DNA of 40,921 nucleotides. It comes from a virus (lineage: Duplodnaviria; Heunggongvirae; Uroviricota; Caudoviricetes). Location of the stretch: positions 1-40,921 of the IMG/VR virus record IMGVR_UViG_2740892440_000004; one strand, given 5' to 3'. Within the stretch, counting starts at the first letter, position 1, and each line of letters starts with the position of its first letter. This document shows positions 12,212-32,802 of this stretch, piece by piece. A program made the position numbers and the translations under genes. The notes beneath the pieces were generated by a model. It searched no databases. It was given only the letters and a program-made list of their open reading frames with translations, and was not told the origin of the DNA.

Positions 12212-12234
12212 TTAGCAAAATACGCCCACGTAGT

Positions 12235-12259: not shown

Positions 12260-12289
12260 CGCCTTTTCCCTGGCTGGCCTGAAGGCGTA

Positions 12290-12445: not shown

Positions 12446-12636
12446 TATGGTCAAAGTAACTTTTAACTTTCAATGAGTACCTGATTGAAAGAATCGTTTA
12501 TCACGTTAAAGCGATAACAATGATTTTAAGCAGCGAGTGTGGTGTAAGTATCATTGTCGAGTAAAAATGTTGCAAGCTATTGAAATAAGTATATATTGCA
12601 AATGATGAGGAAAATAAAATATGCAAGGACCTACTC

Positions 12637-13578
12637 ATGGATGCACTGCATGTCGCGCTTGAAAATCTGATTAGAGATGATGGTCAAACACTAAATAGTT
12701 ATTTTAGTGAAGTTAAAGTTAATTCATTGATTGAAAATACAAATGCAACTTGTCATTTTCATTGCCTTAATCTTGATGGCAATGGACGTCCTCGGGTAGA
12801 CGCGTTAATCCAATTCTTGAACGATAAAGTAGTTGATTATGCTATTCCAAGGAAAAAAATCAATGAGGCAGTGCAATATTTTAATGAAACACAATCAACA
12901 GCGAAAATAACAAAATTAGCAAATCAAGCAAAAAAATTATTTACTAGGCTTGCAAATAGTGGCGAAGGCGGTGAATTTATTCTTTTTTTATTTGCAGAGC
13001 AATTCCTTAGATTTCCACAAATTATTTGCAAAATGAGCCTGAAAACGAGTTCTCAAATGCATTACCATGGTGCAGATGGAATACATATAGGCGTAGATAA
13101 AGATAATAAAAAATTATGTTTATACTGGGGCGAGTCTAAACTCTATTCCAATCTGAGCAAAGGTATTTCTGAGTGTATGGATAGTATAGCTCCATTACTT
13201 CAAAGTTCTATGGGAATAGAAGGCGCTGAGACACGTGATATGCAGTTGCTGGAGTCGCACTTAAATGTTGATGATATAGAACTAGAACAAGCGTTGAAAA
13301 GATTCTTAGATCCTGATAGCCCGGATTTTAATAAATTGGAATACAGAGGAATATGCTTAGTTGGGTTTGATCTTAAAGATTATCCACAAGGGCCCAGTTC
13401 AATTGATATCAGTGAACTAGTTGCTTTGATTAATACTAAAGTCGGGAAATGGTCAACTAGTGTGCAAGGTGGTATAGTTAATAAAAAACTTGATCGCTTT
13501 GCTATGCATGTTTTTATTCTTCCTTTTCCTTCAGTAAAAGCATTTAGGGCTAGTTTAATTAAAGCATTGGAGAGTTGA
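12637..13578 (+). CDS. cargo protein 1 (313 aa) with a PD-(D/E)xK-like nuclease motif; candidate defence effector
   Basis: low-GC ORF; segment HGADGIHIGVDKDNKKLCLYWGESK has D...D...ExK spacing typical of PD-(D/E)xK nucleases. Confidence 0.6.
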   Translation: MDALHVALENLIRDDGQTLNSYFSEVKVNSLIENTNATCHFHCLNLDGNGRPRVDALIQFLNDKVVDYAIPRKKINEAVQYFNETQSTAKITKLANQAKKLFTRLANSGEGGEFILFLFAEQFLRFPQIICKMSLKTSSQMHYHGADGIHIGVDKDNKKLCLYWGESKLYSNLSKGISECMDSIAPLLQSSMGIEGAETRDMQLLESHLNVDDIELEQALKRFLDPDSPDFNKLEYRGICLVGFDLKDYPQGPSSIDISELVALINTKVGKWSTSVQGGIVNKKLDRFAMHVFILPFPSVKAFRASLIKALES

Positions 13579-13579
13579 A

Positions 13580-15514: not shown

Positions 15515-16161
15515 TGCAAAACCTTTGGGATAGATTTTCGCGGGATACAAACAAACCTGTAGAGAGATTACTGCTTTCTGAACCTGGTAGTAATGATGCG
15601 TTAGATTCATATGTATCCGCATTCTCTAGAATTAGTGATACTCTGAGTAAGAAGCTAGGTTATAATTCAAAAGGAGCTTACGTACAGGCCTTGTTAGTTT
15701 CCAAGTGGATGAAAGGTTATCCCCTAGCAAGATTGATCTCGGATAGAATAAGATATAACAAAAAGAAAAATATTGTTTTCAAAGAAGCGACTTTAATACG
15801 AGGGGTTATGAAGGATGTTGAAGAGATCGCTCGCTATCAAGCTCCAAGGCTTTTAGGATGTTATAATGATTTATTAAAAAGCTTTTATCTTTCGATAGAT
15901 CGCACAGACTTAGCAAAAGATGTTGAAGATATCGGTGTTTATTTAGAACTGGGTGTAAGTTTAAAAACTCAGATTTCACTAATAGGGCTTGGCTTTTCAA
16001 GAACTGCTGCTGTAATGATTTCAGAGCTTATTCCTAATGATAGTTTAGATGAGGAAGAATGCATTAATTGGATTAAGGACAATAAAGTTGACATGGAAGA
16101 ACTGCCACAATTAGTTCAAAACGAAATACATAATATATTTCGTAACTTTTGGGTACAATAG
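15514..16161 (+). CDS. cargo protein 3 (215 aa), unknown function; coupled to the helicase by TAATG overlap
   Basis: low-GC ORF immediately following the helicase in a different frame. Confidence 0.6.
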   Translation: MQNLWDRFSRDTNKPVERLLLSEPGSNDALDSYVSAFSRISDTLSKKLGYNSKGAYVQALLVSKWMKGYPLARLISDRIRYNKKKNIVFKEATLIRGVMKDVEEIARYQAPRLLGCYNDLLKSFYLSIDRTDLAKDVEDIGVYLELGVSLKTQISLIGLGFSRTAAVMISELIPNDSLDEEECINWIKDNKVDMEELPQLVQNEIHNIFRNFWVQ

Positions 16162-16192
16162 TCTTATTTAGACGATTTTTTAAACAATCAAT

Positions 16193-16240
16193 AGAGAAGT
16201 TTTTGAATTTTATCATTCTTCCAGTAACAAAAACTTCTCT
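16193..16240. terminator. long-loop hairpin between convergent cargo genes (possible bidirectional terminator)
   Basis: 12-bp inverted repeat agagaagttttt / aaaaacttctct separated by 24 nt, flanked by T-runs. Confidence 0.3.
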
Positions 16241-16253
16241 TTTATAACACCGC

Positions 16254-16711
16254 TCAGGCTATTCCAGAATAGGCTTTGCTTACTTCACTATGCCTTGTGC
16301 CGCAATGCCTCAAAATAACAAGGCCATGTTGCAGTAACGCCTCACTACGTTCAGGTTCAAACCATTTCCCGTTAAATTTTCCTCCGTGAAAAAGATTGTT
16401 TCTTACACGGCGGATTAACAAAAAAAGAAATTTTGCTAAATCTTTTTCTTGTGGTAAAGAATCATCCAAACTAAAGAGTCATCTTCTATGATTTGTTTTT
16501 TGGGTGGGTGTTCTTTAAAGTAGGTGATAGCAGCAATTAGCTCTGGATCAGTTGTGTTATTTATGATTTCAGAAACTTGCTTTGCATACTCATCCCAGTT
16601 CGCTTTAGCATCTTTTATTTTATGATGAAGTCCACATGCCTTAAGGCAATATTCATAACGTGAAAACTCTCTAAAGAATTCATAACATAAATTATCTAGA
16701 TTATTCTCCAT
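16254..16711 (-). pseudogene. HEPN-like small protein (Rx4H motif), split into two ORFs by an apparent 1-bp G-run contraction
   Basis: ORFs 16436-16711 and 16254-16469 overlap; restoring one G in tttgg-atg fuses them into approx. 160 aa; C-terminal part contains IRRVRNNLFHGG, i.e. R-x4-H as in HEPN RNase motifs. Confidence 0.45.
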
Positions 16712-16740
16712 GAACTATATCTCCATGTATAACAAGTTAA

Positions 16741-17940
16741 CTAATATTGATTGCGCTCGTACACTTTTTGGCCCCACCAATTCATAAGTCCTATTCGTTG
16801 CTCAAGGTAAGTTGAACGATTATATGCTCTGCGCACTTCATTTTTATCACTATGTGCAAGAGCAGCCTCAATTACATCTGCATTAAAACCCGCTTCATTT
16901 AATGCGGTGCTGGCAATTGAACGCAATCCATGAGCAACCAATCTACCACCAAATCCAATCCTTTTTAAAGCAGCATTTGCCGTCTGGCTATTCATTGGTT
17001 GCTTTGGGTCATTCCGACTCGGGAAAACATGTTCACGATGGGCACTGATTAGCTTCATCACATCAAGAATCTCTAATGCCTGAGGAGATAGAGGGACTAT
17101 GTGTTCCCGCTTAGCCTTCATTCGTTCAGCTGGGATAGTCCAGAGCTTTGCATCGAGATCGAGCTCAGCCCACCTAGCACCGGAAGCCTCAGAAGGACGA
17201 ACTAGAGTCAGGAGTTGCCACTCAATGAGGCAGCGAGTCGGAACAGACAAATTTGACATGACGAGAGAACGCATCAGCATAGGCAATTCTTCTGGGCGCA
17301 ACGTAGGCATATTTTGTTTTTTTGGCTTCTCAAAGGCCATTCCAATGCCTGATGCTGGATTGGCATCAATAAGACCAGTATTTACGGCATAAATCATTAT
17401 CTCGTTAACACGCTGCACCAACCGGCGCACCGTCTCCAGCGCCCCACGAGCTTTGATCGGTTCAAGGGCTTCAACCAGTGTTCGGGCTTTGATTTGCTGG
17501 ACAGGGATCTCCCCGATGGTGGGGAATACGTCTTTTTCCAGTGAACGCCATATATCTTTAGCGTAATCATGGGTAACGCTTTTGCTTTTGAGCTGGAACC
17601 AGTTAGCGGCGACCGTCGAAAAAATACTGTCCAGAGCGATTTGCTGCTGTTCCTCTGCAACTTCAGCTTGAATTTGCGGGTCGATTCCGTTGGCTAATAG
17701 GGCAAGGTAATCTGCTCTTAACCCTCGGGCATCAGCAAGAGAAAGGGCAGGAAAAGCACCAAGTCCCATCATAGTCCGCTGTTTTGTTGCTGGGCGTTGA
17801 TAGCGAAAGCGCCAGAGTTTCTTGCCGCTAGTTTTCACTATCAGGAAAAGCCCATCGCCATCATGCAGCGTTAGATCCTTCTCTAACGCTTTCGCGCGCA
17901 GAACTTCGGTGTTGGTCAGGGGGCGTGTTGTCCGTGCCAC
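16741..17940 (-). CDS. int: P4-type tyrosine integrase
   Basis: 399 aa; catalytic segments AHGLRSIASTAL (HxxR) and RAYNRSTY (Tyr); positioned next to the tmRNA-derived att fragment. Confidence 0.9.
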   Translation of the reverse strand: MARTTRPLTNTEVLRAKALEKDLTLHDGDGLFLIVKTSGKKLWRFRYQRPATKQRTMMGLGAFPALSLADARGLRADYLALLANGIDPQIQAEVAEEQQQIALDSIFSTVAANWFQLKSKSVTHDYAKDIWRSLEKDVFPTIGEIPVQQIKARTLVEALEPIKARGALETVRRLVQRVNEIMIYAVNTGLIDANPASGIGMAFEKPKKQNMPTLRPEELPMLMRSLVMSNLSVPTRCLIEWQLLTLVRPSEASGARWAELDLDAKLWTIPAERMKAKREHIVPLSPQALEILDVMKLISAHREHVFPSRNDPKQPMNSQTANAALKRIGFGGRLVAHGLRSIASTALNEAGFNADVIEAALAHSDKNEVRRAYNRSTYLEQRIGLMNWWGQKVYERNQY

Positions 17941-18252: not shown

Positions 18253-19314
18253 TTAATCCTCTGCCGCCAAAGTGCCGCCATCATCAACTGTCACCGGTTT
18301 CTCCATTACGTATGCTGACCATTCAGGAGAATAGAATGGTTGCAAAAATTTAGAAAATTGTTCTGTATCAAATTTAATTTCACCAATGTACAAGTAGTTA
18401 TATATATTACTGTAGTTTTGAAGCTGAAATCCGTAAGCTAGTTTTAATATCTTTTTAGATAGATAAAATGCAGCCTCAAGTGATTCGGCTAACATTGATT
18501 CTGTAGGGGTGAACGTTCTTATTTTAGTGCCGTTGATTTTTAACTCTATATAGGCTATCGAGATACAATCTACGCATAAAGTATCTAATAATTTAGCTAT
18601 GTTATATGAAATTGTATTTAATCTGGTAAGGTAATCTTCTGCATTTGAATGGGGTGTAACCTTATCTTTTGATAAGTTATTATTAATGGTATCTAGGATT
18701 GACAATATGCTTTTTTTAAAGTTCTCGTCTGGTGAATAATTGGATGTGATATCCATTGACGATTCTGTATATATATTGGAATATAATAAGTATGGGTTTG
18801 AGATTTTAATTTCATGAGTTGTTAGTATTTTAATTTTGTTGCTATCATTGTAATTATAATATTTTGATGCGTCATCTACAAAGCTTTGCATCGTAAAGCT
18901 TGATATTTCTTTAATTTTATCTACGAAATTTTTCTCATGAGCAAAATGTCTATCGATTGCATTTTTGATTTCAGATGAATTAATTTGTGCTTCGGTTTGT
19001 ATCGTTCTGTGAATGTTATTTACTATGGAAGCTAATGGTACAGAACTTGCGAGTATCAATAATGGGAATTTGCTTATCTCATAGAATCTGGCATATCCGT
19101 GAGCAGAAAGAACAGGTATTTTACCAAACCATGCAAATGCTCCAAAATAAATGAATGACAGCAGTGGTACTGCAATTGAAATCCAAAATAATTTCTGTTG
19201 AAATAAATTTCTTTTATCGAGAATGTACCACTTTTTATATATTGATACAAACGCAAAAAGAATAATTGCCAAAATATACACAATAATTCCAGTAAAGCTA
19301 GTATTAATGTTCAT
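18253..19314 (-). CDS. low-GC membrane protein (353 aa, three N-terminal TM helices plus approx. 250-aa soluble domain); moron co-transcribed with the phage integrase
   Basis: start ATG overlaps the integrase stop (ATGA); hydrophobic segments FTGIIVYILAIILFAFVSIY, LFWISIAVPLLSFIYFGAFAWF, FPLLILASSVPLASIV; AT-rich relative to neighbours. Confidence 0.7.
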   Translation of the reverse strand: MNINTSFTGIIVYILAIILFAFVSIYKKWYILDKRNLFQQKLFWISIAVPLLSFIYFGAFAWFGKIPVLSAHGYARFYEISKFPLLILASSVPLASIVNNIHRTIQTEAQINSSEIKNAIDRHFAHEKNFVDKIKEISSFTMQSFVDDASKYYNYNDSNKIKILTTHEIKISNPYLLYSNIYTESSMDITSNYSPDENFKKSILSILDTINNNLSKDKVTPHSNAEDYLTRLNTISYNIAKLLDTLCVDCISIAYIELKINGTKIRTFTPTESMLAESLEAAFYLSKKILKLAYGFQLQNYSNIYNYLYIGEIKFDTEQFSKFLQPFYSPEWSAYVMEKPVTVDDGGTLAAED

Positions 19315-20332
19315 ATAATATTTAAATTAAATAGTGGGTTTTTAGTTACTGCATCTTCAAGATGCTCTGGTGAAAAATGGGCATAAACCATAGTCATCTT
19401 AATATCTGAATGCCCTAAAATATCCCTCAAAACGAGTATGTTTCCGCCATTCATCATGAAGTGACTGGCGAATGTGTGGCGCAGTACATGGGTGCATTGG
19501 CCTTCTGGCAGCTCAATACCCGCGCGTTTAACCGCCCGCTCAAAGGCTTTTCTACATGGAGTGAATAGCTTCCCTCTGTTTTTGGGGAGTTCATCATACA
19601 GATCCTGAGATATCGGCACAGTACGGTTTTTCTTGCCTTTTGTTTTTGTATAAGTAATTCGGTATTTCGATATTTGATGGCCCTGCAGATTTTCGGCTTC
19701 ACTCCACCGTGCGCCAGTAGCTAGGCATATTTTTGCAATCATTAGTAAGCTAGGGCTTTGAGATTCAGCACATGCCGCCAACAGGCGCTTGATTTCGTCC
19801 GTGGAAAGAAAAGCCAGCTCACCTTCGGCAATTTTGAAGGTCGGAAGTCCTGCCAGCGGGTTTGGTGCTGACCAGTGTCCTAGTTTTTTTAATGTACCGA
19901 ACACAGATGATAGATTGCGCTGTTCAAGGTTTACCGTGCGGGGCTTAACGGGCGACATAAGCGTGCCATCTTCATTTCGTATTTCACCTTTTAACCGTGC
20001 TTCGCGGTATTTTGTAAAGTCACCAGCTGTCAGTTCTGAGGCGATGGGATCGCCTAGACCATTACAGATAATTCTAAGTTTCGCCATGAGGCGCTTGGGG
20101 TCTGCGAGTGTTTGACCATATAGGGAATACCAAAGCTCAATTAATTCTGATAGCGTCGCCGATCATCCTTTTCACCCAACCACGGTTTTTTATTCACTTC
20201 TTCCATTGTGAAGCTTTCAAACGCAATGGCTTCGCCTTTCGTGGCAAATTGCTTACGCACGCGCTTGCCATTGCGTCCATTGGGATAGCACTCACACAAC
20301 CATTTTCCGTTCGGCTGTTTTCTGATGGTCAT
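19311..20332 (-). pseudogene. int: P2/186-type tyrosine integrase, frameshifted near 20130-20140
   Basis: N-terminal ORF (20141-20332) MTIRKQPNGKWLCECYPNGRNGKRVRKQF... and C-terminal ORF (19311-20087) with HVLRHTFASHFMMNGGNILVLRDILGHSDIKMTMVYAHF; combined length approx. 337 aa. Confidence 0.8.
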
Positions 20333-22911: not shown

Positions 22912-23765
22912 GCACCATCCTGAAATGGGCGGGAAATAAAACCGCCATTATGTCCGAACTGAAAAAGCATCTTCCTGCTGGCCCGCGACTGGTTGAACCT
23001 TTCGCGGGTTCCTGTGCAGTGATGATGGAGACGGAGTACCCCAGCTATCTTGTTGCGGATATTAATCCTGATTTAATCAACCTCTATAAAAAGGTTGCTG
23101 CTGATTGTGAATCGTTTATATCTCGCGCCAGAGTTTTATTTGAGATCGCAAACAGGGAGGTGGCTTATTACAACATAAGGCAGGAGTTTAATTACTCAAC
23201 TGAAATTACTGATTTCATGAAAGCGGTATATTTCCTGTATCTCAATCGTCACGGTTACCGTGGTTTATGTCGCTATAACAAGAGCGGGCATTTCAACATT
23301 CCCTACGGTAATTATAAAAATCCGTATTTCCCTGAAAAAGAAATTCGCGCATTTGCAGAAAAAGCCCAGCGAGCAACGTTTATCTGCGCCAGCTTTGATG
23401 AAACGCTGGCGATGTTGAAGGCGGGGGATGTGGTGTATTGCGATCCGCCGTATGACGGTACGTTTTCCGGCTATCACACTGATGGTTTCACTGAAGATGA
23501 CCAGTATCACCTGGCATCCGTTCTTGAACATCGGTCATCAGAAGGACATCCGGTCATTGTTTCTAACAGTGACACATCCCTGATCCGTTCGCTGTATCGC
23601 AATTTTACTCACCACTATATCAAGGTAAAACGCAGCATCGGTGTGGCAGCTGGCGAGGGTAAATCAGCAACAGAAATCATTGCTGTTTCCGGGCCGCGCT
23701 GCTGGGTGGGATTTGATTATTCGCGTGGCGTGGATAGTTCTGCCGTGTACGGAGTACGTGCATGA
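22908..23765 (+). CDS. dam: DNA adenine methyltransferase (Dam-like, N6-adenine)
   Basis: N-terminal LKWAGNK...EPFAGSCAV (SAM-binding) and catalytic DPPY ([13 protein letters not shown]). Confidence 0.85.
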
Positions 23766-26175
23766 GCCATGCCGATATGAACAACTGCTGCGGCTTTAAC
23801 GAGGCTGCCGCAGCGTTCTCATGGAACAGCCCGAAAAAGGCCATTAACCCTTATCTGGACCCGGCGGAAGTTGCGCCGGTTTCTGCGCTTTCAAACCTGA
23901 TCGCTCTGTACGCTGCCGATAACGAGCAGGAACACCTGCGCCGCGAGGCACTGAGTGATCAGGTCTGGGAGCGTTATTTCTTTAATGAATCCCGTGATCC
24001 TGTCCAGCGCGAAATGGAGCAGGATAAGCTCATTAGTCGGGCAAAGCTGGCGCATGAGCAGCAGCGTTTTAATCCAGATATGGTCATTCTGGCGGACGTC
24101 AATGCCCAGCCTTCCCATATCAGCAAGCCGCTGATGCAACGTATTGAATACTTCAGCAGCCTGGGCAGGCCAAAGGCTTATTCCCGCTATTTGCGTGAGA
24201 CGATTAAGCCATGTCTGGAGCGACTGGAGCATGTACGCGACAGCCAGCTATCTGCATCTTTTCGTTTTATGGCAAGCCATGTAGGGCTGGACGGCCTGCT
24301 GATTCTGCCTGAAATGAGTCAGGATCAGGTGAAACGCCTGTCTACTCTTGTCGCTGCGCATATGAGCATGTGTCTTGATGCCGCTTGTGGTGATTTGTAC
24401 GCCACCGATGACGTTAAGCCAGAAGAAATCCGCAAAACATGGGAAAAGGTGGCAGCGGAAACCCTGCGTCTGGATGTTATTCCGCCTGCGTTTGAGCAAC
24501 TCCGTCGGAAAAGAAACCGCCGTCAACCCGTGCCCTATGAACTCATTCCGGGTTCGCTGGCGCGTATGTTGTGTGCCGACTGGTGGTACCGGAAATTATG
24601 GAAAATGCGTTGCGAATGGCGGGAAGAGCAGTTGCGTGCTGTCTGCCTGGTCAGCAAAAAAGCATCTCCCTATGTCAGCTATGAAGCCGTGATTCATAAA
24701 CGTGAGCAGCGCCGCAAGTCACTGGAGTTTTTCCGTTCTCATGAACTGGTGAACGAAGAGGGCGACACGCTGGATATGGAAGACGTGGTAAACGCCAGCA
24801 GCAGCAACCCGGCGCACCGCCGCAATGAGATGATGGCCTGTGTTAAAGGTCTGGAGCTTATCGCGGAAATGCGCGGTGACTGCGCCGTTTTCTACACCAT
24901 TACCTGTCCGTCACGTTTCCATTCCACGCTCAATAACGGCAGACCAAACCCAACCTGGACAAATGCGACGGTAAGACAAAGCAGCGATTATCTGGTCGGC
25001 ATGTTTGCTGCATTTCGTAAGGCGATGCACAAAGCCGGGTTGCGCTGGTATGGCGTGCGGGTGGCTGAGCCGCATCATGACGGTACAGTTCACTGGCACC
25101 TGTTGTGTTTCATGCGCAAAAAAGACCGCCGCGCCATTACTGCATTGTTGCGTAAGTTTGCCATCCGTGAAGACCGCGAGGAACTGGGTAATAACACTGG
25201 TCCACGCTTTAAATCTGAGCTGATAAACCCGCGCAAAGGAACGCCGACAAGCTACATCGCGAAATACATCAGTAAGAACATTGACGGGCGTGGTCTGGCT
25301 GGCGAGATCAGCAAGGAAACGGGTAAATCCCTGCGTGATAACGCTGAATACGTTAATGCCTGGCGTCTCTGCATCGTGTACAGCAATTCCGCTTCTTTGG
25401 TATTCCGGGACGTCAGGCTTACCGTGAACTTCGCTTGCTGGCTGGTCAGGCGGCAAGGCAACAGGGTGACAAAAAAGCAGGTGCGCCGGTACTGGATAAC
25501 CCGCGTCTTGATGCCATTCTGGCTGCTGCTGATGCTGGTTGTTTTGCCACCTACATCATGAAGCAGGGCGGCGTACTGGTTCCCCGCAAATATCACCTCA
25601 TCAGAACCGCTTATGAAATCAACGAAGAGCCGACCGCCTATGGCGATCACGGCATTCGTATTTATGGCATCTGGTCACCCATTGCAGAGGGCAAGATCTG
25701 CACTCATGCAGTGAAGTGGAAAATGGTTCGTAAGGCCGTTGACGTTCAGGAGGCGGCAGCCGACCAGGGCGCTTGCGCCCCTTGGACTCGTGGCAATAAC
25801 TGTCCCCTTGCTGAAAATTTGAACCAACAGGAGAAAGATAAATCAGCTGATGGGGACCCCAGAACGGACATTACCAGCATGGATGACAAGGAGTTGCACG
25901 ATTACCTGCACAGTATGAGCAAAAAAGAGCGCCGGGAACTGGCAGCAAGGTTATGCCTGGTGAAACCGAAACGGCGTAAAGACTACAAACAGCGAATTAC
26001 AGACCATCAGCGACTGCAGCTCGTGTATGAGCTGAAGTCCAGAGGATTTGATGGCAGCGAGAAAGAGGTCGATTTACTCCTTCGCGGAGGCAGTATTCCG
26101 TCAGGAGCAGGCCTGCGTATCTTCTATCGGAGCCAGCGTTTGCAGGAAGATGATCAGTGGCGGAACCTGTATTAA
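23762..26175 (+). pseudogene. P2 gpA-family replication initiation endonuclease, frameshifted at about 25363
   Basis: HUH-like [11 protein letters not shown] and catalytic tyrosines YIAKYISKN; frame a ends in junk after ...EYVNAW while frame b continues [29 protein letters not shown]...; restoring one G in tgg-cg fuses approx. 805 aa. Confidence 0.8.
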
Positions 26176-26267
26176 TTACGCGGGTTAACAATTCGTGCTC
26201 TTAATAATACCAGGCATATCAGGCTGATGAATGTAAAAAAACGTTTTACATCAGTAAGATTATTATA

Positions 26268-26287
26268 TACTGTAAATATAAACAGTG
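26268..26287. promoter_or_regulatory. LexA (SOS) box
   Basis: TACTGTAAATATAAACAGTG fits CTG-N10-CAG SOS-box consensus; lies 40 bp upstream of the small ORF / DinI-like operon. Confidence 0.6.
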
Positions 26288-26328
26288 GTTATACATACAG
26301 TATTGCGTGTGGTGTCATAGGAGGAAAG

Positions 26329-26517
26329 ATGCAGGACTATTTTTTGGAGTCTTTGAAGCTCCAGCGCATTGATTTTTTTCTTAAGCTTGTAGCGGCTAGT
26401 GAGTGTAGTGATGAAGAGAAGGGGCTGGCTCTGCAGTGGGTTTCTGAATTGACTGATGAACTCATGGCAAAAATCAGAACCCACGAATACAACCGCTCAA
26501 TGGATGTCATCAGCTGA
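26329..26517 (+). CDS. hypothetical small protein (62 aa) in SOS-controlled operon
   Basis: GGAGG RBS then ATG 26329. Confidence 0.45.
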   Translation: MQDYFLESLKLQRIDFFLKLVAASECSDEEKGLALQWVSELTDELMAKIRTHEYNRSMDVIS

Positions 26518-26527
26518 GGTGACTTTT

Positions 26528-26761
26528 ATGCGCATTGAAATAATGATCGATAAAGAGCAGAAGATTAGCCAGTCTACCCTGGACGCCCTTGAATCCGAGC
26601 TTTACCGCAATCTGCGCCCCCTGTATCCCAAAACGGTAATTCGCATTCGCAAAGGTAGCTCTAACGGTGTGGAACTAACCGGACTGCAACTGGACGAAGA
26701 AAGAAAACAAGTGATGAAAATTATGCAGAAGGTGTGGGAAGACGACAGCTGGCTGCATTAA
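26528..26761 (+). CDS. DinI-like protein (Tum/antirepressor C-terminal-domain-like)
   Basis: 77 aa MRIEIMIDKEQ...LYRNLRPLYPK...VWEDDSWLH resembles the DinI family (MRIEV...E.W....W). Confidence 0.7.
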   Translation: MRIEIMIDKEQKISQSTLDALESELYRNLRPLYPKTVIRIRKGSSNGVELTGLQLDEERKQVMKIMQKVWEDDSWLH

Positions 26762-26799
26762 GAAACGTTGCTGGCGTCTGAACTTGCTTCTGGCGTCAG

Positions 26800-26995
26800 C
26801 AAGGTTGAACAACGAGCCCTTGCGAGGCGTTAGCTCTGTAGTGCATGTCTATGCCGCATGAGATCGCATGATCGTTTGAGGATCGTTTTTGCTAAGGCCC
26901 GCCAGAACTGGCGGGCTTTTGCGTAGCTCATGCAGGTGCATGAAAACCACTACATAAAGCGGGCAGGCGTGGCGGGGATACGAGCGCGCGAAATC
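26800..26995. other. cos-like packaging site of the 186/P2-like prophage (candidate)
   Basis: non-coding; core GGCGTGGCGGGGATACGAGC at 26966-26985 shares its first 13 nt with the recalled 186 cohesive end GGCGTGGCGGGGAAAGCAT; homologous to the satellite block at 12290-12445. Confidence 0.4.
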
Positions 26996-27131
26996 CCTTA
27001 CTATGAAGAAAAGTGTGACTTAATTACCAACCAGGGTTAAGCTTTGATTCATATTGAGAGTAAGTTGAACTAGAATATTTTAACAGAGAGGAACCACTGA
27101 GCGGTGGTGTTTTTTTGAACAAGGAGCAATT

Positions 27132-27827
27132 ATGAAATTGATTGAACAGACGCATCAGATTAATTTTTTCACAAATAATAATGATATAGTTCCAAATACA
27201 CTAACTATTGGATCTATGCTTGATAAGATTGGAAAATTTGGATTTGTACCTACTTTTGGTCAGGAGATTAATGCCATCACTGGTGAGAAAAAGCAAATTC
27301 TTATCATGGTAGATACCAATCAAACAGTAAGAGTCGAGTTTCCTAGCCATGGAATCATTTTTAATGGTTTGGGGGGGGAACCTCAAGCGTTTTCAGAAAT
27401 GGTTCTATCTATATCTAGGGAACTACAAAACGTATTTCCGATGAAAAAAGGAAATAGGATAGCTGTTCTGAATTCACGTATCTATCAAGGGGATGAATCT
27501 GTTTACTCTTCGCTTTACAATGCTTTGTTTACCTATAAAGGTGTTAATCCATTTGAGTGGGACAATCGTATAGCTGTAAGGAAAAATATTGAAGAGTATC
27601 AGGAAGAAATTAATAGTATTAGTACAATTAGACGCGCTGAAATTTCAGCTCCATTTTTGAATAATGGTATGCCAAGTGATTGCGTATTATTTGAAACTGA
27701 TACTAATACTCTTCCTCAAAATGGATATATGCGGTTTGGTTGGGATGAATATATCCGCGTGCTAGAGTTATTGTGTCAGGACAATCTTAAAACTATTGAT
27801 AATTTACAACGCTACACTTCTCTGTAA
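27132..27827 (+). CDS. cargo protein X1 (231 aa), unknown function
   Basis: low-GC ORF, first of three tightly spaced genes between the cos-like site and the portal gene; no recognisable motif. Confidence 0.75.
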   Translation: MKLIEQTHQINFFTNNNDIVPNTLTIGSMLDKIGKFGFVPTFGQEINAITGEKKQILIMVDTNQTVRVEFPSHGIIFNGLGGEPQAFSEMVLSISRELQNVFPMKKGNRIAVLNSRIYQGDESVYSSLYNALFTYKGVNPFEWDNRIAVRKNIEEYQEEINSISTIRRAEISAPFLNNGMPSDCVLFETDTNTLPQNGYMRFGWDEYIRVLELLCQDNLKTIDNLQRYTSL

Positions 27828-27836
27828 GGTGATGCT

Positions 27837-28484
27837 ATGGTAAAGAATAGTTTTATAATAAGTGATGAAAAGCCTTTTGGCTTACCTAAGTTTAAAAATG
27901 GGGTAAGTTCAATAGGTGCATTTTCTGATTATTATGATGGTAACAATATCATTTACGCTGATATTAAAAGAAATGAGCTGTCACATAGCAAAACAAATGG
28001 TGGCTTTCAATTAGAGACTGAGTCAATAAATCAAGGTTCGTCAACTAAGCAGAACTTTGAAATTCAGGTTTCAAAATGTACCTCTAGACTAATTGAGTTA
28101 ACATGTTCAGAAGATTACATTGAAGGCGAGATAAGCAAGACACAGATTTACATGGAGTTCTTGTATGATAAAAATCAGGATTTATTCCAAGAGTCCTTTC
28201 AAAGGACATGGGTACAATTGTACAGAATGAATGATCAACATGTAAAGAACTTCATTAATTTTGCATCGACTATTGAATATGAATGGTTAGGTAATAAAGC
28301 TGACGCTATGATTATGGGAGTTTGTTCTCTTGAGAATGAACTTATATTTGAGGCAGCGATCCGTGCAGTTGAGTCTTGGGGGGAAAAATCATTTATTCCA
28401 GTCCTTGAAAGAATGAGGAAATTTGATGCTGATTGGGTGGAAGAATATAAAGAAGCAGTTATAGGATATTTGAGAAGTCTATAA
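27837..28484 (+). CDS. cargo protein X2 (215 aa), unknown function
   Basis: AGGTGA RBS; 9 bp after X1; no recognisable motif. Confidence 0.75.
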   Translation: MVKNSFIISDEKPFGLPKFKNGVSSIGAFSDYYDGNNIIYADIKRNELSHSKTNGGFQLETESINQGSSTKQNFEIQVSKCTSRLIELTCSEDYIEGEISKTQIYMEFLYDKNQDLFQESFQRTWVQLYRMNDQHVKNFINFASTIEYEWLGNKADAMIMGVCSLENELIFEAAIRAVESWGEKSFIPVLERMRKFDADWVEEYKEAVIGYLRSL

Positions 28485-29005
28485 TGACATATTTATTGCG
28501 TAAAATATCCCATAGTAAATGGGAATGTAATAAAGGTAGAGCACCTGACAATATATCCGCAGACGCGATAACAGGTTGCACAAGGACCTCTAATAACACC
28601 TTGTCAGTTTGGGTTTCTGACTCTATCGATTTTCAAGATGAATCGGTAGAGAAAATTATTGTTGCCCTTGCCACCACGATGTCAGAGCCAGCTACGATAG
28701 ATTTGGTTTGGCTTGATTCACAATGGTTTGAAGATAAAGGTATTGATATTTCTCGTACTGAAGGAAATACTTTGTATAAATCAGTTAACCATTTGCATCG
28801 AGATCTGTCAGAATTAAATCATAGAAAGCTTGCTGAGGTTGGTGAACATATACTTGAGCAATTAAAATCTAAGGATTATTATAAAAGAATCCTCAAGAGT
28901 GAACTTATAGCCTTAGTTTTTAAATGGCAGCAGCGAGATGGTGATTTTGATATTGATGATTTGGGACAGAAGTGGTCTAAGTCATTAAATAAACTGATTA
29001 ACTGA
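28484..29005 (+). CDS. cargo protein X3 (173 aa), unknown function
   Basis: start overlaps X2 stop (TAATG); no recognisable motif. Confidence 0.75.
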   Translation: MTYLLRKISHSKWECNKGRAPDNISADAITGCTRTSNNTLSVWVSDSIDFQDESVEKIIVALATTMSEPATIDLVWLDSQWFEDKGIDISRTEGNTLYKSVNHLHRDLSELNHRKLAEVGEHILEQLKSKDYYKRILKSELIALVFKWQQRDGDFDIDDLGQKWSKSLNKLIN

Positions 29006-29010
29006 TTTTC

Positions 29011-29040
29011 AAAAGCCCTCGATTGAGGGCTTGCTTTAAA
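29011..29040. terminator. bidirectional rho-independent terminator between cargo operon and portal gene
   Basis: hairpin agccctc-gatt-gagggct flanked by AAAA upstream and TTTAAAAATT downstream. Confidence 0.55.
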
Positions 29041-30063
29041 AATTGTATGTGTTAAATGTTATTATTTTATCGTCTAACCAATTATTTAACTCATCCAATC
29101 TTTTTTGCAATGGTATTAGTTCGTTACGAACAAACACACGGCTTGCCTTCTCCACATCCCCAAACCCCCCAACATTATTCGGCATAATCCCCATCATTTG
29201 CGGCGGCACACGATGCGCTGCCATCATGTCATCGCGGCTGACATTTTTGATACTCAGAAACTCATCCTTCGCCGCGACTTCTGACAACGGGATGATCTGA
29301 AGCCCGTCCTTTTTGCCGTTAGGCGAGTACATAAACAGGTTGCGGAAGTTGCCAGGGCCTTTGGCGCTTTTCATCGCATTGCGGAGGTTGTTCACATCCT
29401 CCTGGTTCTGCGCGGCATCGGTCATGTACATGATGAAGCTGCATGACTGCCGTTAATGTAATACTTGCGGCGGAACAGCGTGGCGGACTCGTTGAGCAGG
29501 GCTGATGGAATGGCAGAAAGATAACCTGGCAGGCCGTAGATCTCCTGGTTGATGTCCGGTTCCATCAGATGAAAAATGCTGCCTTTCGTGAACTGATACG
29601 GCTGGGTTGTCATACCGTATTGCACAAACCAGTAGGTATCCAGGTCTAACCCGCGTCGGGTGTATTTTGCCAGAGCAGGCTCAAGGGCGATAACTTCACC
29701 GAAGCGGTTCGTGCGTTTCTCCAGGTAGGCGTTACCAAATACCAGATAGTCCTGCACAAAACGTGAAAAAGCCTGCTGGCTGAGCAGCGGGTGAGGGATG
29801 TAGGTACTGGTCAGAATGTTGCATTTCACCGCAATTGGTGAGCTGTGATGCACGGCGGCGCGGAAGGTTCGTGCCAGTCCGTCAAAGCTGACGGGCGGCT
29901 CATACCAGCGGTCCATCTGTACGCATTCCACATAGTCCAGCAGTTCACGGCGGTCCAGAACAGGAACGGGATCGCCAAAGCTGAATGCTTCGGCTGAAGT
30001 TTGGCTTTTATGCTTGAGCTGATTCGTCGCCGCAGCGCGGTTTTTCTTACTCTTTCCCATCAA
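29036..30063 (-). pseudogene. Q: portal protein (P2 gpQ family), frameshifted near 29430
   Basis: two contiguous same-strand ORFs (213 + 131 aa = 344 aa, the gpQ length); restoring one G in gcagc fuses ...YINGSHA to ...MYMTDAAQ. Confidence 0.8.
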
Positions 30064-31826
30064 AAAATCTCCACAATATTGCTGGTATTGGCGGACTCGC
30101 CCTGCAGCGGTTCGTTAAACAGTGCGTGCATTGTTGCCCAGGCCAGATCGGCGTGGCTGGCTTCTTCGCTGCGGCTGGCCTCATAGGTCGGGCGGTTGCC
30201 GCTGGCAGTGGTGGCGCGACGGATTGCCATAAAGGACTGCGCTATGTCGGTGTGCCCGGCGTCAAACTCCAGGCGGCGGTGGCTAATAATGTCGTAGGCC
30301 TTGAGTACCAGGGCGTTTTTAACGTTGGGGTTGTAGACAAACTCCCGGACGGCAGGAAAAAACGCTTTCACGTTCTCGTAAACCCCGTGACCGACGCCGG
30401 TTGAGTCGATACCGATGTATGTCACGTTGTACTGTTCAGTCAGTTTTTTGATGGCGTTAGCCTGGGCGCGGAAGTCCATCCCGCGCCACTGGTGACGCTC
30501 AAGAATGCGGAACTTACCGCCCGGCACGGCTGGCGGTGCCACCACCACGCACCCGGCGCTGTCGCCGTTTTGCGTACCTTTTGCCGGGTCATAACCGATC
30601 CACACTTCGCGCCAGCCAAACGGGCGCAGGGCCAGTGCATGAAAGTCGGTCCAGACTTCCCAACTGTCCACCATGCACGCCTGCAGCTCGCTGAGCGGGA
30701 ACACGGACGCGAGATCGTCCACAAACTCGCACATCAGCAGGTTCTGGTATTCGTCCGGGCTGTACTCCATGCGCAACTGATCGAGGTCGAAAAGGTTACA
30801 TCCGCCGCGCACTGCATCTTCCACGGTGACTATCTGGCGGTATTGCCCGTCTGCGCACAGCAGGCCGGGGGCCAGATTGCTGTGGGACAGGTCGATGTCC
30901 ACCTTATCGGCTTTATTGCGCCCACGGTTGAACAGCGCACCGGACCAGAACGGATAAGCACTGTGTGTCAGGCTGGATGGCGTGGAAAAATAGGTTTGTC
31001 GCCATTTTTTGTGAATAGCCATACCAGAAGCCACTTTGCGCAGCTCCTGGAATTTCGGTATCCAGAAATATTCATCCAGATACAGGTTGCCGTGGTAACT
31101 CTGGGCCGTGCGGGCATTGGTGCCGAGGAAGTAAAGCGTGGCTCCGTTAGGAAGCACCATCGGATCGCCTTTCAGCTCCACCTCGACTTCTTTGGCGAAG
31201 TCTATGATGTACTGCTTAAAGACGTGAGCCTGTGCCTTGCTGGCGGAAAGAAAAATCTGGTTACGTCCGGTAAGCAGAGCGTCAATCAGGGCTTCACGGG
31301 CAAAGTAAAAGGTCGCGCCGATCTGGCGTGACTTCAGCAGGTTGCGGATGCGGTTGGTTTTTCCGGCTTCCCACCAGTGGCGCTGGTAGTTGAACATGGA
31401 GGAATGGAAGATTTCTTCCAGCTTCTCAATCTGCTCATCGGTGAAAACATTCTTTTCCGGCTGACGGCGCGGGCCTTTGTTGCGGTTGGCGACGTTAGGG
31501 TTTAAGTCGGATTCGTTGCCGCCATTGTTAAACTTGCCGATCCGCGCGTGGCGCTCCGACTGGCGCGCCAGCAGGTCAATCTCTTTGAAATCTTTCCCTT
31601 CTTTGTGCTCCTTCATAATGAGCTGGCAGTAGCGTGCGGCGGTGGTGAGCTGCATCTGATCCAGCGGCCCATAGTCACCCCACTTGTCGCGTTTTTTCCA
31701 GCTGTGAACGGTTGCAACTTTCTCGCCCAGCATTTCAGCAATGCGGGCTACGCGGTATCCCTGAAAGTACAGCAGCATGGCCTGCCGACGGGGATCGAGA
31801 TCTGCGGGTGTCAGTGTGGTGTTCAT
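30060..31826 (-). CDS. P: terminase large (ATPase) subunit (P2 gpP family)
   Basis: 588 aa; position divergent from capsid operon; resembles P2 gpP as recalled. Confidence 0.85.
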   Translation of the reverse strand: MNTTLTPADLDPRRQAMLLYFQGYRVARIAEMLGEKVATVHSWKKRDKWGDYGPLDQMQLTTAARYCQLIMKEHKEGKDFKEIDLLARQSERHARIGKFNNGGNESDLNPNVANRNKGPRRQPEKNVFTDEQIEKLEEIFHSSMFNYQRHWWEAGKTNRIRNLLKSRQIGATFYFAREALIDALLTGRNQIFLSASKAQAHVFKQYIIDFAKEVEVELKGDPMVLPNGATLYFLGTNARTAQSYHGNLYLDEYFWIPKFQELRKVASGMAIHKKWRQTYFSTPSSLTHSAYPFWSGALFNRGRNKADKVDIDLSHSNLAPGLLCADGQYRQIVTVEDAVRGGCNLFDLDQLRMEYSPDEYQNLLMCEFVDDLASVFPLSELQACMVDSWEVWTDFHALALRPFGWREVWIGYDPAKGTQNGDSAGCVVVAPPAVPGGKFRILERHQWRGMDFRAQANAIKKLTEQYNVTYIGIDSTGVGHGVYENVKAFFPAVREFVYNPNVKNALVLKAYDIISHRRLEFDAGHTDIAQSFMAIRRATTASGNRPTYEASRSEEASHADLAWATMHALFNEPLQGESANTSNIVEIF

Positions 31827-31872
31827 GGCACAAACCTACAGCCTTGAATGAAGGCTTTCCCCGCCTGCGGTT

Positions 31873-31890
31873 TGTGTGGTTGTCGGTACA
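31873..31890. promoter_or_regulatory. TGT-N12-ACA late-promoter activator site in the divergent P/O intergenic region
   Basis: TGTGTGGTTGTCGGTACA. Confidence 0.45.
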
Positions 31891-31968
31891 AATACCGCGC
31901 ATTGTTTCACTGCCCCCATCACCGCAACCATAAGGCTCCAGTAAGTTTTTTCTAACGGAGCACGGCTC

Positions 31969-32802
31969 ATGACAGTGAAAGCAAAGCGTTTTCGCATCGG
32001 GGTGGAAGGTGCCACCACCGACGGACGCGAAATCCAGCGTGAATGGCTGGAACAGATGGCAGCCAGCTACAACCCGGCGGTGTATACCGCGCTGATTAAC
32101 CTTGAGCACATCAAGTCTTATCTGCCGGACAGCACCTTTAACCGCTACGGCAAGGTGACGGCGCTGTTTGCTGAAGAAATCACGGAAGGTCCGCTGGCAG
32201 GCAAGATGGCGCTGTATGCCGACGTTGAGCCAACGGAGTCCCTGGTGGAGCTGGTGAAAAAAGGCCAGAAATTATTCACCTCTATGGAAGTCAGCCCGAA
32301 GTTTGCTGATACGGGCAAAGCCTACCTGGTCGGCCTGGCTGCCACTGATGATCCAGCCAGTCTGGGTACGGAAATGCTGACATTCAGCGCCAGTGCAGCC
32401 CATAACCCGCTGGCAAGCCGCAAGCAGAATCCTGCCAATCTCTTTACCGCTGCAGAGGAAACGGTGATCGAACTGGAAGAAATCCAGGATGACAAACCGT
32501 CCCTGTTTGCCCGTGTCACGGCGCTGTTCACCAAAAAAGAGCAGTCCGATGATGCCCGGTTCTCTGATGTGCATAAGGCCGTGGAGCTGGTCGCCACTGA
32601 GCAGCAGAACCTGAGCGCACGCACCGAAAAATCCCTGTCTGAGCAGGAAGAACGCCTGTCTGAACTGGAGACTGCTCTGCAGGAGCAGCAAACCGCTTTT
32701 AACGAACTGGTGAATAAGCTGAGTCATGAAGACAGCCGCCAGGACTACCGCCAGCGTGCAACAGGCGGTAACGCCCCCGCTGACACTCTGACCAATTGCT
32801 GA
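31969..32802 (+). CDS. O: capsid scaffolding protein (P2 gpO family)
   Basis: 277 aa, first gene of capsid operon. Confidence 0.8.
   Translation: MTVKAKRFRIGVEGATTDGREIQREWLEQMAASYNPAVYTALINLEHIKSYLPDSTFNRYGKVTALFAEEITEGPLAGKMALYADVEPTESLVELVKKGQKLFTSMEVSPKFADTGKAYLVGLAATDDPASLGTEMLTFSASAAHNPLASRKQNPANLFTAAEETVIELEEIQDDKPSLFARVTALFTKKEQSDDARFSDVHKAVELVATEQQNLSARTEKSLSEQEERLSELETALQEQQTAFNELVNKLSHEDSRQDYRQRATGGNAPADTLTNC

What the first reader, a model, noticed from the sequence alone, without database searches (positions are those of the whole stretch)
26800..26995. Prophage cos-like site lies upstream of the cargo operon rather than adjacent to the portal gene
The core GGCGTGGCGGGGATACGAGC shares its first 13 nt with the recalled 186 cohesive end. 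If this is cos, the three cargo genes at 27132-29005 sit at the extreme left end of the packaged genome, between cos and the portal. That is a different insertion point from the right-end old/tin position of P2, and worth confirming because it defines a possibly distinct accessory hotspot.
Basis: inference. Interest (0 to 1): 0.45.

Follow-up and report, generated by a model that had tools for sequence, protein, structure and literature searches.

The report
Prophage cos site beside cargo hotspot
The sequence is very probably the DNA-packaging cut site (cos) of a Fels-2-type P2-like prophage, and the three unknown genes after it sit in a foreign-gene hotspot between cos and the portal gene that was first described in 1996, so the finding is correct but not new.

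Summary
Observation confirmed. GGCGTGGCGGGGATACGAGC lies at 26966-26985. Its first 13 nt equal the 186 cohesive end, and it sits in a full P2-family cos core (nhmmer 93 bits).

Interpretation supported. The three genes at 27132-29005 lie between cos and the portal stop (29036), so they would be at the extreme left end of packaged DNA. P2, 186 and PSP3 have only about 170 bp and a terminator there.

It is not new. Dodd & Egan 1996 placed retrons Ec67/Ec86 at this position, and phiCTX, phiRSY1 and the SEN8 annotation show the same layout. Rousset 2022 pooled it into the cos-proximal gpA-gpQ defence hotspot. Cargo gene 1 is in their Table S5B (system 83, untested).

What my surveys add:
- Left-of-cos cargo is the rule in Fels-2-type prophages (125/135 loci, at least 78 cassette types).
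- It is rare in P2-type (2/79) and occasional in 186-type (15/79).
- The variable segment starts 6-8 nt after the 19-nt end and extends about 25 codons into the portal gene.

The cargo is a conserved three-gene module of unknown function. Gene 3 shows a weak ADP-ribosyltransferase-like fold signal. Cleavage at this cos has not been shown experimentally.

The parts
26966..26984 (+). Predicted 19-nt 5' cohesive end (cos cleavage region), GGCGTGGCGGGGATACGAG
   Evidence: It matches the annotated 186 end at 15 of 19 positions, including the first 13. It is identical to the 'putative cos site' at 1-19 of Salmonella phage SEN8, whose record ends at the base corresponding to window 26965. It is nearly invariant in 135 related loci. 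Cleavage has not been shown experimentally.
26937..26991 (+). Equivalent of the 55-bp P2/P4 cos core: 29 bp on the right-end side, the 19-nt end, and about 7 bp (GCGCG..) on the left-end side
   Evidence: Gapless alignment with the P2, 186 and Fels-2 junctions. Per-position conservation is 0.8-1.0 up to offset +24 and falls to background (0.3-0.5) from +26/+27. By my reading of the P4 sequence in Rousset Table S2A against P2, P2 and P4 also diverge after GCGCGC at +26. The 55-bp core concept (Ziermann & Calendar 1990) is cited via PMC5694545.
26897..26920 (+). GC-rich inverted repeat GCCCGCC-AGAACT-GGCGGGC followed by TTTT. It probably terminates the dinI transcript and may be part of the extended cos region.
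   Evidence: Read directly from the sequence. It aligns with an inverted repeat at the same offset in 186 and is conserved at 0.8-0.98 in the survey. The consensus scan did not flag it. The function is inferred.
26528..26761 (+). DinI-like gene (the 186 tum / PSP3 tumB position), the last conserved gene on the right-end side of cos
   Evidence: Pfam DinI, 1.3e-22. Coordinates transferred from the PGAP annotation of the 99.9 % identical CV839-06 locus. Fels-2, SEN8 and 813R9 have the same gene in the same position.
23762..26175 (+). Replication endonuclease gpA. It is interrupted in the window by a 1-nt deletion at about 25361.
   Evidence: tblastn with the intact CV839-06 gpA gives two HSPs in different frames. 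The deletion is in a GGG run. The gap from the gpA stop to cos is 790 bp, the baseline for this lineage, so there is no cargo on the right side here.
26992..29110 (.). Variable low-GC segment (the exchangeable cassette), running from just after the cos core into the last ~25 codons of the portal gene
   Evidence: Megablast homology to all relatives stops at window 26990-26993. GC is 31-38 % from about 27000 to about 29150, against 50-55 % in the flanks. Portal matches in other E. coli resume only at window 29060-29148. At least 78 cassette types occur among 114 loci. The portal tail co-varies with the cargo.
27048..27108 (+). Promoter-like hexamers (27048-27081) and a hairpin with a T-run (27093-27108), upstream of the cargo RBS and ATG
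   Evidence: Consensus scan only. These are matches to a consensus, not evidence of function.
27132..27827 (+). Cargo gene 1, 231 aa, unknown function
   Evidence: No Pfam, NCBIfam or PADLOC hit; PHROG 19817, function unknown. The sequence is identical to a protein of system 83 (43 loci) in Rousset 2022 Table S5B. Only 22 homologues were found among 5.8 billion proteins. The AF2 model has pLDDT 92 and only weak TBP-like pseudo-dimer fold hits, TM at most 0.32.
27837..28484 (+). Cargo gene 2, 215 aa, unknown function, the least conserved of the three
   Evidence: No family hit except PHROG 21208, function unknown. Six homologues were found. Uncharacterised proteins of 181-188 aa occupy the same slot in Vibrio and Acinetobacter copies.
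28484..29005 (+). Cargo gene 3, 173 aa, unknown function, with a possible ADP-ribosyltransferase-like fold
29013..29030 (.). Hairpin GCCCTC-GATT-GAGGGC between the converging cargo and portal genes, a probable bidirectional terminator (the position of tQ/tW in P2 and 186)
   Evidence: Read from the sequence. P2 and 186 annotate a terminator directly after the portal stop. The consensus scan did not flag it. The function is inferred.
29036..30063 (-). Portal gene (gpQ homologue). It is interrupted in the window by a 1-nt deletion at about 29438, and its last ~25 codons belong to the variable segment.
   Evidence: Pfam Phage_portal hits on both halves. The gene is intact (1,026 bp) in CV839-06. 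The deletion is in a CC run. Tail analysis.
30060..31826 (-). Terminase large subunit (gpP homologue), the enzyme expected to cut at cos
   Evidence: Pfam Terminase_6N, Terminase_6C and Terminase_5.

Best explanation
Window 26937-26991 is the cos site of a Fels-2-type (Felsduovirus-like) P2-family prophage.

By homology with P2 and 186, the phage terminase (large subunit at 30060-31826) would make nicks staggered by 19 nt. Virion DNA would then start with GGCGTGGCGGGGATACGAG.

Almost all sequence-specific recognition lies on the gpA/dinI side of the cut. Only about 6-7 bp beyond the cohesive end are constrained. The next essential element on the other side is the portal gene. The stretch in between is therefore dispensable: about 140 bp plus a terminator in P2 and 186.

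In this lineage that stretch has become the main landing pad for accessory cassettes. Here it holds a self-contained three-gene operon (27132-29005). The operon appears to have its own promoter and is transcribed toward the portal gene, ending at a shared hairpin terminator.

Cassettes are most likely swapped between related prophages by homologous recombination. One crossover falls in the conserved gpA-dinI-cos arm and the other in the portal/terminase genes. As a result, the last ~25 portal codons travel with the cassette.

From its location and its behaviour as a mobile module, the cargo is most probably a lysogen-expressed anti-phage or toxin-based system, but its function is unknown.

Shown here: the sequence identity of the cos core, its position, the boundaries and diversity of the variable segment, and the lineage bias.

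Inferred: cleavage at this site, cargo expression, the recombination mechanism and the cargo function.
For: Cos identity: the 13-mer is unique. The 19-mer matches 186 at 15 of 19 positions, and the conserved flanks align without gaps to 186, P2 and Fels-2. The profile hit scores 93 bits, though the window is one of the profile's four seeds. SEN8's record starts and ends exactly at this cut and annotates a putative cos.

Position: cos is 2,051 bp from the portal stop and 790 bp from the gpA stop. Portal and terminase are identified by Pfam.

Minimal left-side requirement: conservation drops at +26/+27 across 135 loci. P2 and P4 diverge at the same point.

Hotspot: 125 of 135 Fels-2-type loci carry more than 400 bp between cos and portal, with at least 78 cassette types among 114 segments. 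E. coli neighbours carry TIR, SEFIR, S1 peptidase, P-loop NTPase, ParA, DUF4145 and Hypoth_Ymh genes at the same place. Fels-2 and SEN8 have other cargo there.

Lineage bias: 2 of 79 P2-type and 15 of 79 186-type loci carry such cargo.

Recombination: the window and CV839-06 are virtually identical from 25735 to 32500 but about 4 % divergent in the 5' 2 kb of gpA. The portal tail has cargo-like GC (0.34 against 0.53 in the body; r = 0.62, p = 4e-13). Tail identity is 0.84 for pairs with the same cargo against 0.42 for different cargo.

Module autonomy: the same three-gene operon occurs in Acinetobacter, Erwinia and Vibrio outside intact P2-like prophages.

Literature.
Against: No experiment shows cleavage at this 19-mer in any Fels-2-type phage. 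SEN8's feature is labelled 'putative'.

The window's portal and gpA each carry a 1-nt frameshift. If these are real, this copy cannot package DNA and its cos is a relic.

The survey loci are not phylogenetically independent. The IMG/VR sets are the 80 closest portals per query, so the percentages count contigs, not events.

The cargo matches no known defence model. Its promoter and terminators are consensus or by-eye calls only.

The portal-tail pattern could partly reflect closer overall relatedness of loci that share a cargo (core identity 0.97 against 0.94).
Confidence: 0.85

Rival explanations
1. The two sides of cos form one hotspot, the gpA-gpQ interval. Cos merely happens to lie inside it, and calling the cos-portal side a distinct insertion point is a matter of coordinates only.
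For: Rousset 2022 and the 2026 NAR study define and analyse a single gpA-gpQ hotspot. In the prophage and in replicating circles, cos is uncut. In the Fels-2-type survey both sides are occupied in 69 of 125 loci. Their lengths are negatively correlated (Spearman -0.39), as expected if they share one capacity budget. Rousset's cloned systems include cargo on either side, and the 3HP system lies on the dinI side of cos.
Against: Use of the two sides is strongly lineage-specific: left side in 2 of 79 P2-type, 15 of 79 186-type and 125 of 135 Fels-2-type loci. The ~125-bp conserved cos block always separates the two variable segments. The left segment also has its own characteristic boundary inside the portal gene.
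Confidence: 0.4
2. The cos-like sequence is a non-functional relic in a defective prophage, and the cargo sits in decaying prophage DNA rather than at the end of a packageable genome.
For: The portal, gpA and the neighbouring satellite's HamB are all interrupted in the window.
Against: Both prophage frameshifts are 1-nt losses in short homopolymers, a typical assembly-error signature. The 99.9 % identical CV839-06 copy has both genes intact with the same cos and cargo. The cos core is under strong conservation in 135 loci. No alternative cos exists next to the portal.
Confidence: 0.15
3. The cargo is not a defence system. It could be another kind of accessory module, such as a toxin-antitoxin or addiction module, or a host-fitness or virulence factor, that happens to ride in the hotspot.
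For: There is no PADLOC, Pfam or NCBIfam hit. Rousset 2022 notes that the hotspot also carries non-defence functions such as partition systems. ParA genes are seen at this site in E. coli. The weak ART-like fold of gene 3 fits a toxin as well as a defence effector.
Against: [quoted passage not shown] The module occurs in integrase-bearing islands in other genera, as is typical of defence cargo. None of this is specific evidence.
Confidence: 0.35

Closest known systems
Retron Ec67 / Ec86 insertion site in a 186-related prophage (Dodd & Egan 1996, Virology 219:115; known to me only through its title and through citations in PMC5694545 and PMC7826664)
   Same: The same lineage: a Fels-2-type prophage with a dam methylase gene upstream of gpA. 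Fels-2 annotations refer to 'retron EC67 DNA adenine methylase'. The same position too: foreign DNA replaces the stretch between cos and the terminator or packaging gene.
   Different: The cargo here is a three-gene operon of unknown function, not a retron. My data place the distal boundary inside the portal ORF rather than at the terminator. I could not read the 1996 paper to compare junctions nucleotide by nucleotide.
P2 gpA-gpQ 'cos-proximal' defence hotspot (Rousset et al. 2022, PMC9122126; 2026 NAR follow-up, PMC13586616)
   Same: The window's cargo lies between gpA and gpQ next to cos. Cargo gene 1 (identical sequence) and a shorter call of gene 3 are listed as system 83, with 43 loci, in Table S5B.
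   Different: Those studies work at gene level and do not separate the two sides of cos or map breakpoints. System 83 was not tested. The validated 'hp+hp+hp' system is unrelated and lies on the other side of cos.
P2 old/tin ('TO') region
   Same: Lysogenic-conversion cargo next to cos in a P2-family phage.
   Different: It lies on the opposite side of cos, between gpA/orf91 and cosR, so it is at the right end of virion DNA. P2-type prophages almost never use the left side (2 of 79).
P4 satellite cos-adjacent hotspot
   Same: The variable cargo begins immediately after the shared cos core. P4 diverges from P2 after GCGCGC at +26, the same point where the Fels-2-type loci diverge. The window's own P4-like satellite shows the same layout, with a cos-like core and then Hachiman.
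   Different: It is a different element, a satellite without structural genes. Its far boundary is the integrase side, not a portal gene.
phiCTX ctx and phiRSY1 ORF1-4 (P2-like phages of Pseudomonas and Ralstonia); Salmonella phage SEN8
   Same: Extra genes lie between cosL and the gpQ homologue. SEN8 has the identical 19-mer and two cargo genes before the portal.
   Different: The cargo differs. phiCTX and phiRSY1 have divergent cos sequences and different hosts. I know the phiCTX case only through the citation in PMC5694545.

Membership tests
P2-family cos site | A 19-nt cohesive-end sequence of the type GGCG[A/T]GGCGGGG... | tested here: met
   26966-26984 is GGCGTGGCGGGGATACGAG. The first 13 nt are identical to 186, and 15 of 19 match overall.
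P2-family cos site | A conserved core around the cut (the 55-bp P2/P4 core): TGCAT.AAAACC...AAGCGGGC on the right-end side and GCGCG(C) after the 19-mer | tested here: met
   Gapless alignment to P2, 186 and Fels-2. nhmmer 93.2 bits, from a profile that includes the window as a seed. Conservation profile.
P2-family cos site | Location between the replication/SOS module (gpA, dinI/tum) and the portal-terminase operon | tested here: met
   gpA stop at 26175, dinI at 26528-26761, cos at 26966, portal stop at 29036, terminase at 30060-31826.
P2-family cos site | Cleavage by terminase to give 19-nt 5' overhangs, and sufficiency for packaging | not testable with these tools
   Only a 'putative' annotation exists for SEN8 in this lineage. 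Testing needs virion end sequencing or a cosmid packaging assay.
gpA-gpQ defence hotspot of P2-like phages (Rousset 2022) | Genes located between gpA and gpQ, next to cos | tested here: met
   Gene 1 is listed in Table S5B, system 83.
gpA-gpQ defence hotspot of P2-like phages (Rousset 2022) | Content varies among otherwise similar prophages | tested here: met
   At least 78 cassette types among 114 segments. Only 4 of 5,426 E. coli genomes hold a match covering at least 80 % of this cos-cargo-portal stretch, while 1,288 match parts of the query.
gpA-gpQ defence hotspot of P2-like phages (Rousset 2022) | The cargo confers anti-phage activity | not testable with these tools
   System 83 is not among the cloned systems. 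No paper mentions the RefSeq accessions.
Known or candidate anti-phage defence systems (PADLOC-DB 2.0) | A match of the cargo proteins to a system model | tested here: not met
   No hits at E <= 0.01 for any of the three proteins. As a positive control, the satellite's HamA and HamB hit strongly in the same library.
ADP-ribosyltransferase (ART) superfamily, for cargo gene 3 | An ART fold with catalytic-motif positions on strands beta1, beta2 and beta5 | tested here: inconclusive

The most novel reading that the evidence does not exclude
The most novel reading has two parts.

(a) The three-gene module at 27132-29005 is a previously uncharacterised anti-phage or abortive-infection system whose effector (gene 3) is a divergent ADP-ribosyltransferase-fold enzyme.

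(b) In Fels-2-type phages the exchangeable cassette always includes a replacement C-terminal tail of the portal protein (about 25 residues). Accessory-gene swapping would then remodel an essential virion protein, possibly with functional consequences, for example for terminase or satellite interactions.
Probability: 0.3. Interest if true: 0.5.

Novelty: already known. Interest (0 to 1): 0.22.

Why it matters
The finding correctly locates the packaging site of a common family of enterobacterial prophages. It also shows that the genes after it are swappable cargo, which is how new anti-phage systems are now routinely found. That principle has been in the literature since 1996 and was exploited at scale in 2022, so the finding opens no new question.

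The modest added value from this check has three parts:
- A nucleotide-level definition of the cassette: it starts 6-8 nt after the cohesive end and ends about 25 codons inside the portal gene.
- Evidence that use of the left or right side of cos depends on lineage.
- An untested, domain-less three-gene module that is conserved from E. coli to Vibrio and Acinetobacter, which is a reasonable candidate for a defence screen.

Tried and rejected
- **Rousset's validated three-gene 'hp+hp+hp' system as the cargo.** Rejected. Its proteins are 335, ~350 and 226 aa and unrelated, and its clone places it on the dinI side of cos.
- **Family searches on the cargo.** Pfam, NCBIfam and PADLOC gave nothing, and PHROGs gave only families of unknown function. 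Scanning 32 gene-3 homologues against Pfam gave only scattered noise.
- **Fold search for gene 1.** Only weak TBP-like or RCR-Rep-like pseudo-dimer hits (TM at most 0.32), with no functional inference.
- **Fold search for gene 3.** Nothing was significant, and the ART lead is kept only as a hypothesis.
- **Rfam on 26000-29300.** No structured RNA and no retron ncRNA.
- **tRNA scan of the window for att sites.** None found.
- **Phage records with experimentally defined ends at this 19-mer.** Only SEN8, labelled 'putative'. Cartapus, Midge and other records end at arbitrary or 186-type positions.
- **Primary papers.** Odegrip 2006 is not held in the library. I did not try to retrieve Dodd & Egan 1996; I used its title and secondary citations.
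- **Middle cargo gene in Rousset Table S5.** Not found, but the stored file is truncated, so absence is uninformative.
- **Literature search for the three RefSeq accessions.** Nothing found.
- **A second cos next to the portal.** None found.

Full report
**1. The observation**

The 20-mer GGCGTGGCGGGGATACGAGC is at window 26966-26985. The exact 13-mer GGCGTGGCGGGGA is unique in the window. The 186 record annotates its cohesive end at 1-19 as GGCGTGGCGGGGAAAGCAT. The first 13 nt are therefore identical, and 15 of 19 match without gaps.

The similarity is not limited to the overhang. I rebuilt the circular junctions of 186 and P2 from their right and left ends. The window then aligns without gaps over about 100 bp. 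This includes CATGCA..TGCAT.AAAACC...CATAAAG.GGGCA before the cut and GCGCG after the 19-mer.

A profile of four junctions (the window's own plus 186, P2 and Fels-2) scores 93.2 bits (E = 1e-26) at 26893-26991; because the window is a seed, this score is partly circular. It gives no hit near the portal gene. Its only other hit, at 12385-12439 (22 bits), belongs to a separate P4-like satellite.

**2. Gene context**

| Feature | Coordinates | Evidence |
|---|---|---|
| gpA (replication endonuclease) | 23762-26175 | |
| Small ORF | 26329-26517 | |
| DinI-like gene | 26528-26761 | |
| GC-rich hairpin with T-run | 26897-26920 | |
| cos core | 26937-26991 | |
| Three + strand ORFs | 27132-29005 | |
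| Hairpin | 29013-29030 | |
| Portal (minus strand) | 29036-30063 | |
| Terminase large subunit | 30060-31826 | |
| Scaffold, capsid and downstream genes | from 31969 | |

Cos is 2,051 bp from the portal stop and 790 bp from the gpA stop. In P2, 186 and PSP3, cos is 168-178 bp from the portal stop, with only a terminator in between. P2's old and tin lie on the other side, between gpA/orf91 and cosR.

**3. Support from relatives**

- Megablast homology of 26200-29100 to Fels-2, RE2010, 813R9, 500465-1 and many Klebsiella P2-like phages ends at window 26990-26993, a few nt after the 19-mer.
- 813R9 has a Hypoth_Ymh gene between cos and portal.
- Fels-2 has a 1.7-kb gene there, and another gene on the dinI side.
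- Salmonella phage SEN8 (Felsduovirus) is deposited with its first base at the same 19-mer. That feature is labelled 'putative cos site'. Its last base corresponds to window 26965, and two genes (a hypothetical protein and an HNH endonuclease) precede its portal.
- Among 5,426 complete E. coli genomes, 1,288 match parts of this query. Only 4 hold a match covering at least 80 % of it. Others carry TIR, SEFIR, S1 peptidase, P-loop NTPase, ParA, DUF4145 or TIGR02391 genes in the interval.

**4. Surveys**

I fetched 160 loci anchored on a Fels-2-type portal, 80 from species-representative genomes and 80 from IMG/VR. I located cos with nhmmer and gpA and portal with tblastn. As a control, I ran the same pipeline on 80 loci anchored on the P2 portal and 80 on the 186 portal.

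| Portal set | Loci with cos found | Median cos-to-portal gap (bp) | Gap >400 bp | Gap ≤300 bp |
|---|---|---|---|---|
| Fels-2-type | 135 | 1,692 | 125 | 10 |
| P2-type | 79 | 172 | 2 | 77 |
| 186-type | 79 | 179 | 15 | 61 |

- The Fels-2-type intervals fall into at least 78 sequence clusters among 114 segments. The window's cassette is a singleton in this sample.
- The gpA-to-cos side is also variable. The baseline is about 790 bp, and 76 of 125 loci exceed 1.2 kb.
- Both sides are occupied in 69 of 125 loci, and their lengths are negatively correlated (Spearman -0.39).
- Left-of-cos cargo is therefore typical of the Fels-2-type lineage, occasional in 186-type and rare in P2-type.
- Caveat: these sets are not phylogenetically independent, so the numbers count contigs, not events.

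**5. Boundaries of the variable segment**

*Cos side.* Per-position conservation is 0.93-1.00 through offset +24 (the 19-mer plus GCGCG). It is 0.80 at +25 and at background from +26/+27. P2 and P4 diverge at the same place: GCGCGC, then T in P2 and A in P4. This fits the 55-bp P2/P4 core of Ziermann & Calendar 1990, cited via PMC5694545. I infer that terminase recognition is almost entirely on the gpA side.

*Portal side.* The boundary is not the terminator.
- The last ~25 portal codons (after PLQKR) are hypervariable.
- Their GC is 0.34, like the cargo (0.37) and unlike the portal body (0.53).
- Tail GC correlates with cargo GC (r = 0.62, p = 4e-13), while body GC does not (r = 0.08).
- Tail identity is 0.84 for loci sharing a cassette against 0.42 otherwise. 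The preceding 80 residues stay at 0.97 and 0.94.
- In the window, the low-GC tract runs from about 27000 to about 29150. E. coli portal matches resume only at 29060-29148.
- The P2-type set, which lacks left cargo, has 99-100 % identical portals to the end.

**6. Mode of exchange**

The window and E. coli CV839-06 are virtually identical from 25735 to 32500, with one substitution and one 1-nt gap. They differ at 84 positions in all, nearly all within 23701-25734, the 5' part of gpA. This indicates a recombination junction inside gpA. It fits cassette exchange by homologous recombination in the flanking core genes, which remains an inference.

**7. The cargo**

- The three proteins (231, 215 and 173 aa) have no Pfam, NCBIfam or PADLOC match, and only PHROGs of unknown function.
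- Gene 1 (identical sequence) and a shorter call of gene 3 form 'system 83' (43 loci) in Rousset 2022 Table S5B. That system was not tested.
- The operon (231 / 181-215 / 176-180 aa) recurs in Erwinia, Acinetobacter and Vibrio, partly outside P2-like prophages. It is therefore an autonomous module.
- The AF2 models are confident, with pLDDT 92 for gene 1 and 89.5 for gene 3.
- Gene 1 gives only weak TBP-like pseudo-dimer matches.
- Rfam finds nothing in the interval.

**8. Comparison with what is known**

[quoted passage not shown] PMC7826664 repeats this for a Fels-2-type prophage.
- Rousset 2022 examined 'the cos-proximal region ... between gpA and gpQ' in 18,150 E. coli loci. The 2026 NAR study treats the same hotspot at gene level, without cos or breakpoint resolution.
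- Judging only from the papers I could read, three points appear not to be explicit in them: the lineage bias, the +25 boundary shown across many loci, and the portal-tail linkage.

**9. Caveats**

- Cleavage at this 19-mer has not been demonstrated experimentally in this lineage.
- The window has 1-nt deletions in gpA (GGG run, 25361) and portal (CC run, 29438) relative to the intact CV839-06 copy. They look like assembly errors, but if real this copy would be defective.
- The promoter and terminator calls are consensus-level or by eye.

**Verdict**

Interest is low. A moderate residual interest attaches to the untested three-gene module and the portal-tail linkage.

Noticed in passing
window 6018-17940: A P4-like satellite lies next to the P2-like prophage. 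It carries an alpha primase (6018-8402, minus strand), Ash (8910-9461), Sid/Psu-like genes (10703-11937), a cos-like core (~12385-12440), a Hachiman system (HamA 12637-13578, HamB 13580-16161) and an integrase (16741-17940, minus strand). The layout is the same as in the prophage: cos core, then cargo immediately after.
   Followed up: partly
window 12418-12442 versus 26962-26986: The satellite's cos core (GGCA GGCGGGCGGGGCAGCGCAC GC) differs from the co-resident prophage's (GGCA GGCGTGGCGGGGATACGAG CG). It resembles the weak-scoring cos of another P2-like lineage seen in L051 and L043. The neighbouring prophage may therefore not be this satellite's helper.
   Followed up: no
window 25361, 29438 and ~15514: Three genes are interrupted: gpA, portal and the satellite's HamB (split 13580-15514 / 15514-16161). 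The two prophage frameshifts are 1-nt losses in GGG and CC runs relative to the otherwise near-identical CV839-06. This suggests assembly indel errors rather than decay, but it is unresolved.
   Followed up: partly
window 29036-29110 (portal 3' end); loci L088-L167: The last ~25 codons of the portal gene are hypervariable and low in GC, and they co-vary with the cassette between cos and portal. The exchanged module therefore includes a replacement portal C-terminus. I did not find this described in the papers I could read.
   Followed up: yes
window 23701-25734 versus 25735-32500: Mosaicism relative to E. coli CV839-06: about 4 % divergence in the 5' 2 kb of gpA, then near-identity through cos, cargo, portal and terminase. 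This implies a recombination junction inside gpA.
   Followed up: partly
window 18253-19314 (minus strand): A 353-aa ORF with no Pfam or PADLOC hit sits beside the P2-like integrase (19311-20087). This is the minor 'integrase-att' cargo position mentioned in the 2026 NAR paper.
   Followed up: no
Fels-2-type survey loci L008-L167: The lengths of the cargo on the two sides of cos are negatively correlated (Spearman -0.39, p = 7e-6). The summed gpA-to-portal non-core DNA has a median of 3.3 kb and a maximum of 6.1 kb, consistent with a packaging-size budget. This is not controlled for phylogeny.
   Followed up: partly
L171 (Acinetobacter baumannii), L173/L174 (Erwinia billingiae), L175-L177 (Vibrio alginolyticus): The three-gene cargo module is conserved as an operon in distant Gammaproteobacteria. 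In Acinetobacter it lies in ordinary chromosomal context, and in Vibrio at the edge of an integrase-bearing island next to four other genes without Pfam domains.
   Followed up: partly
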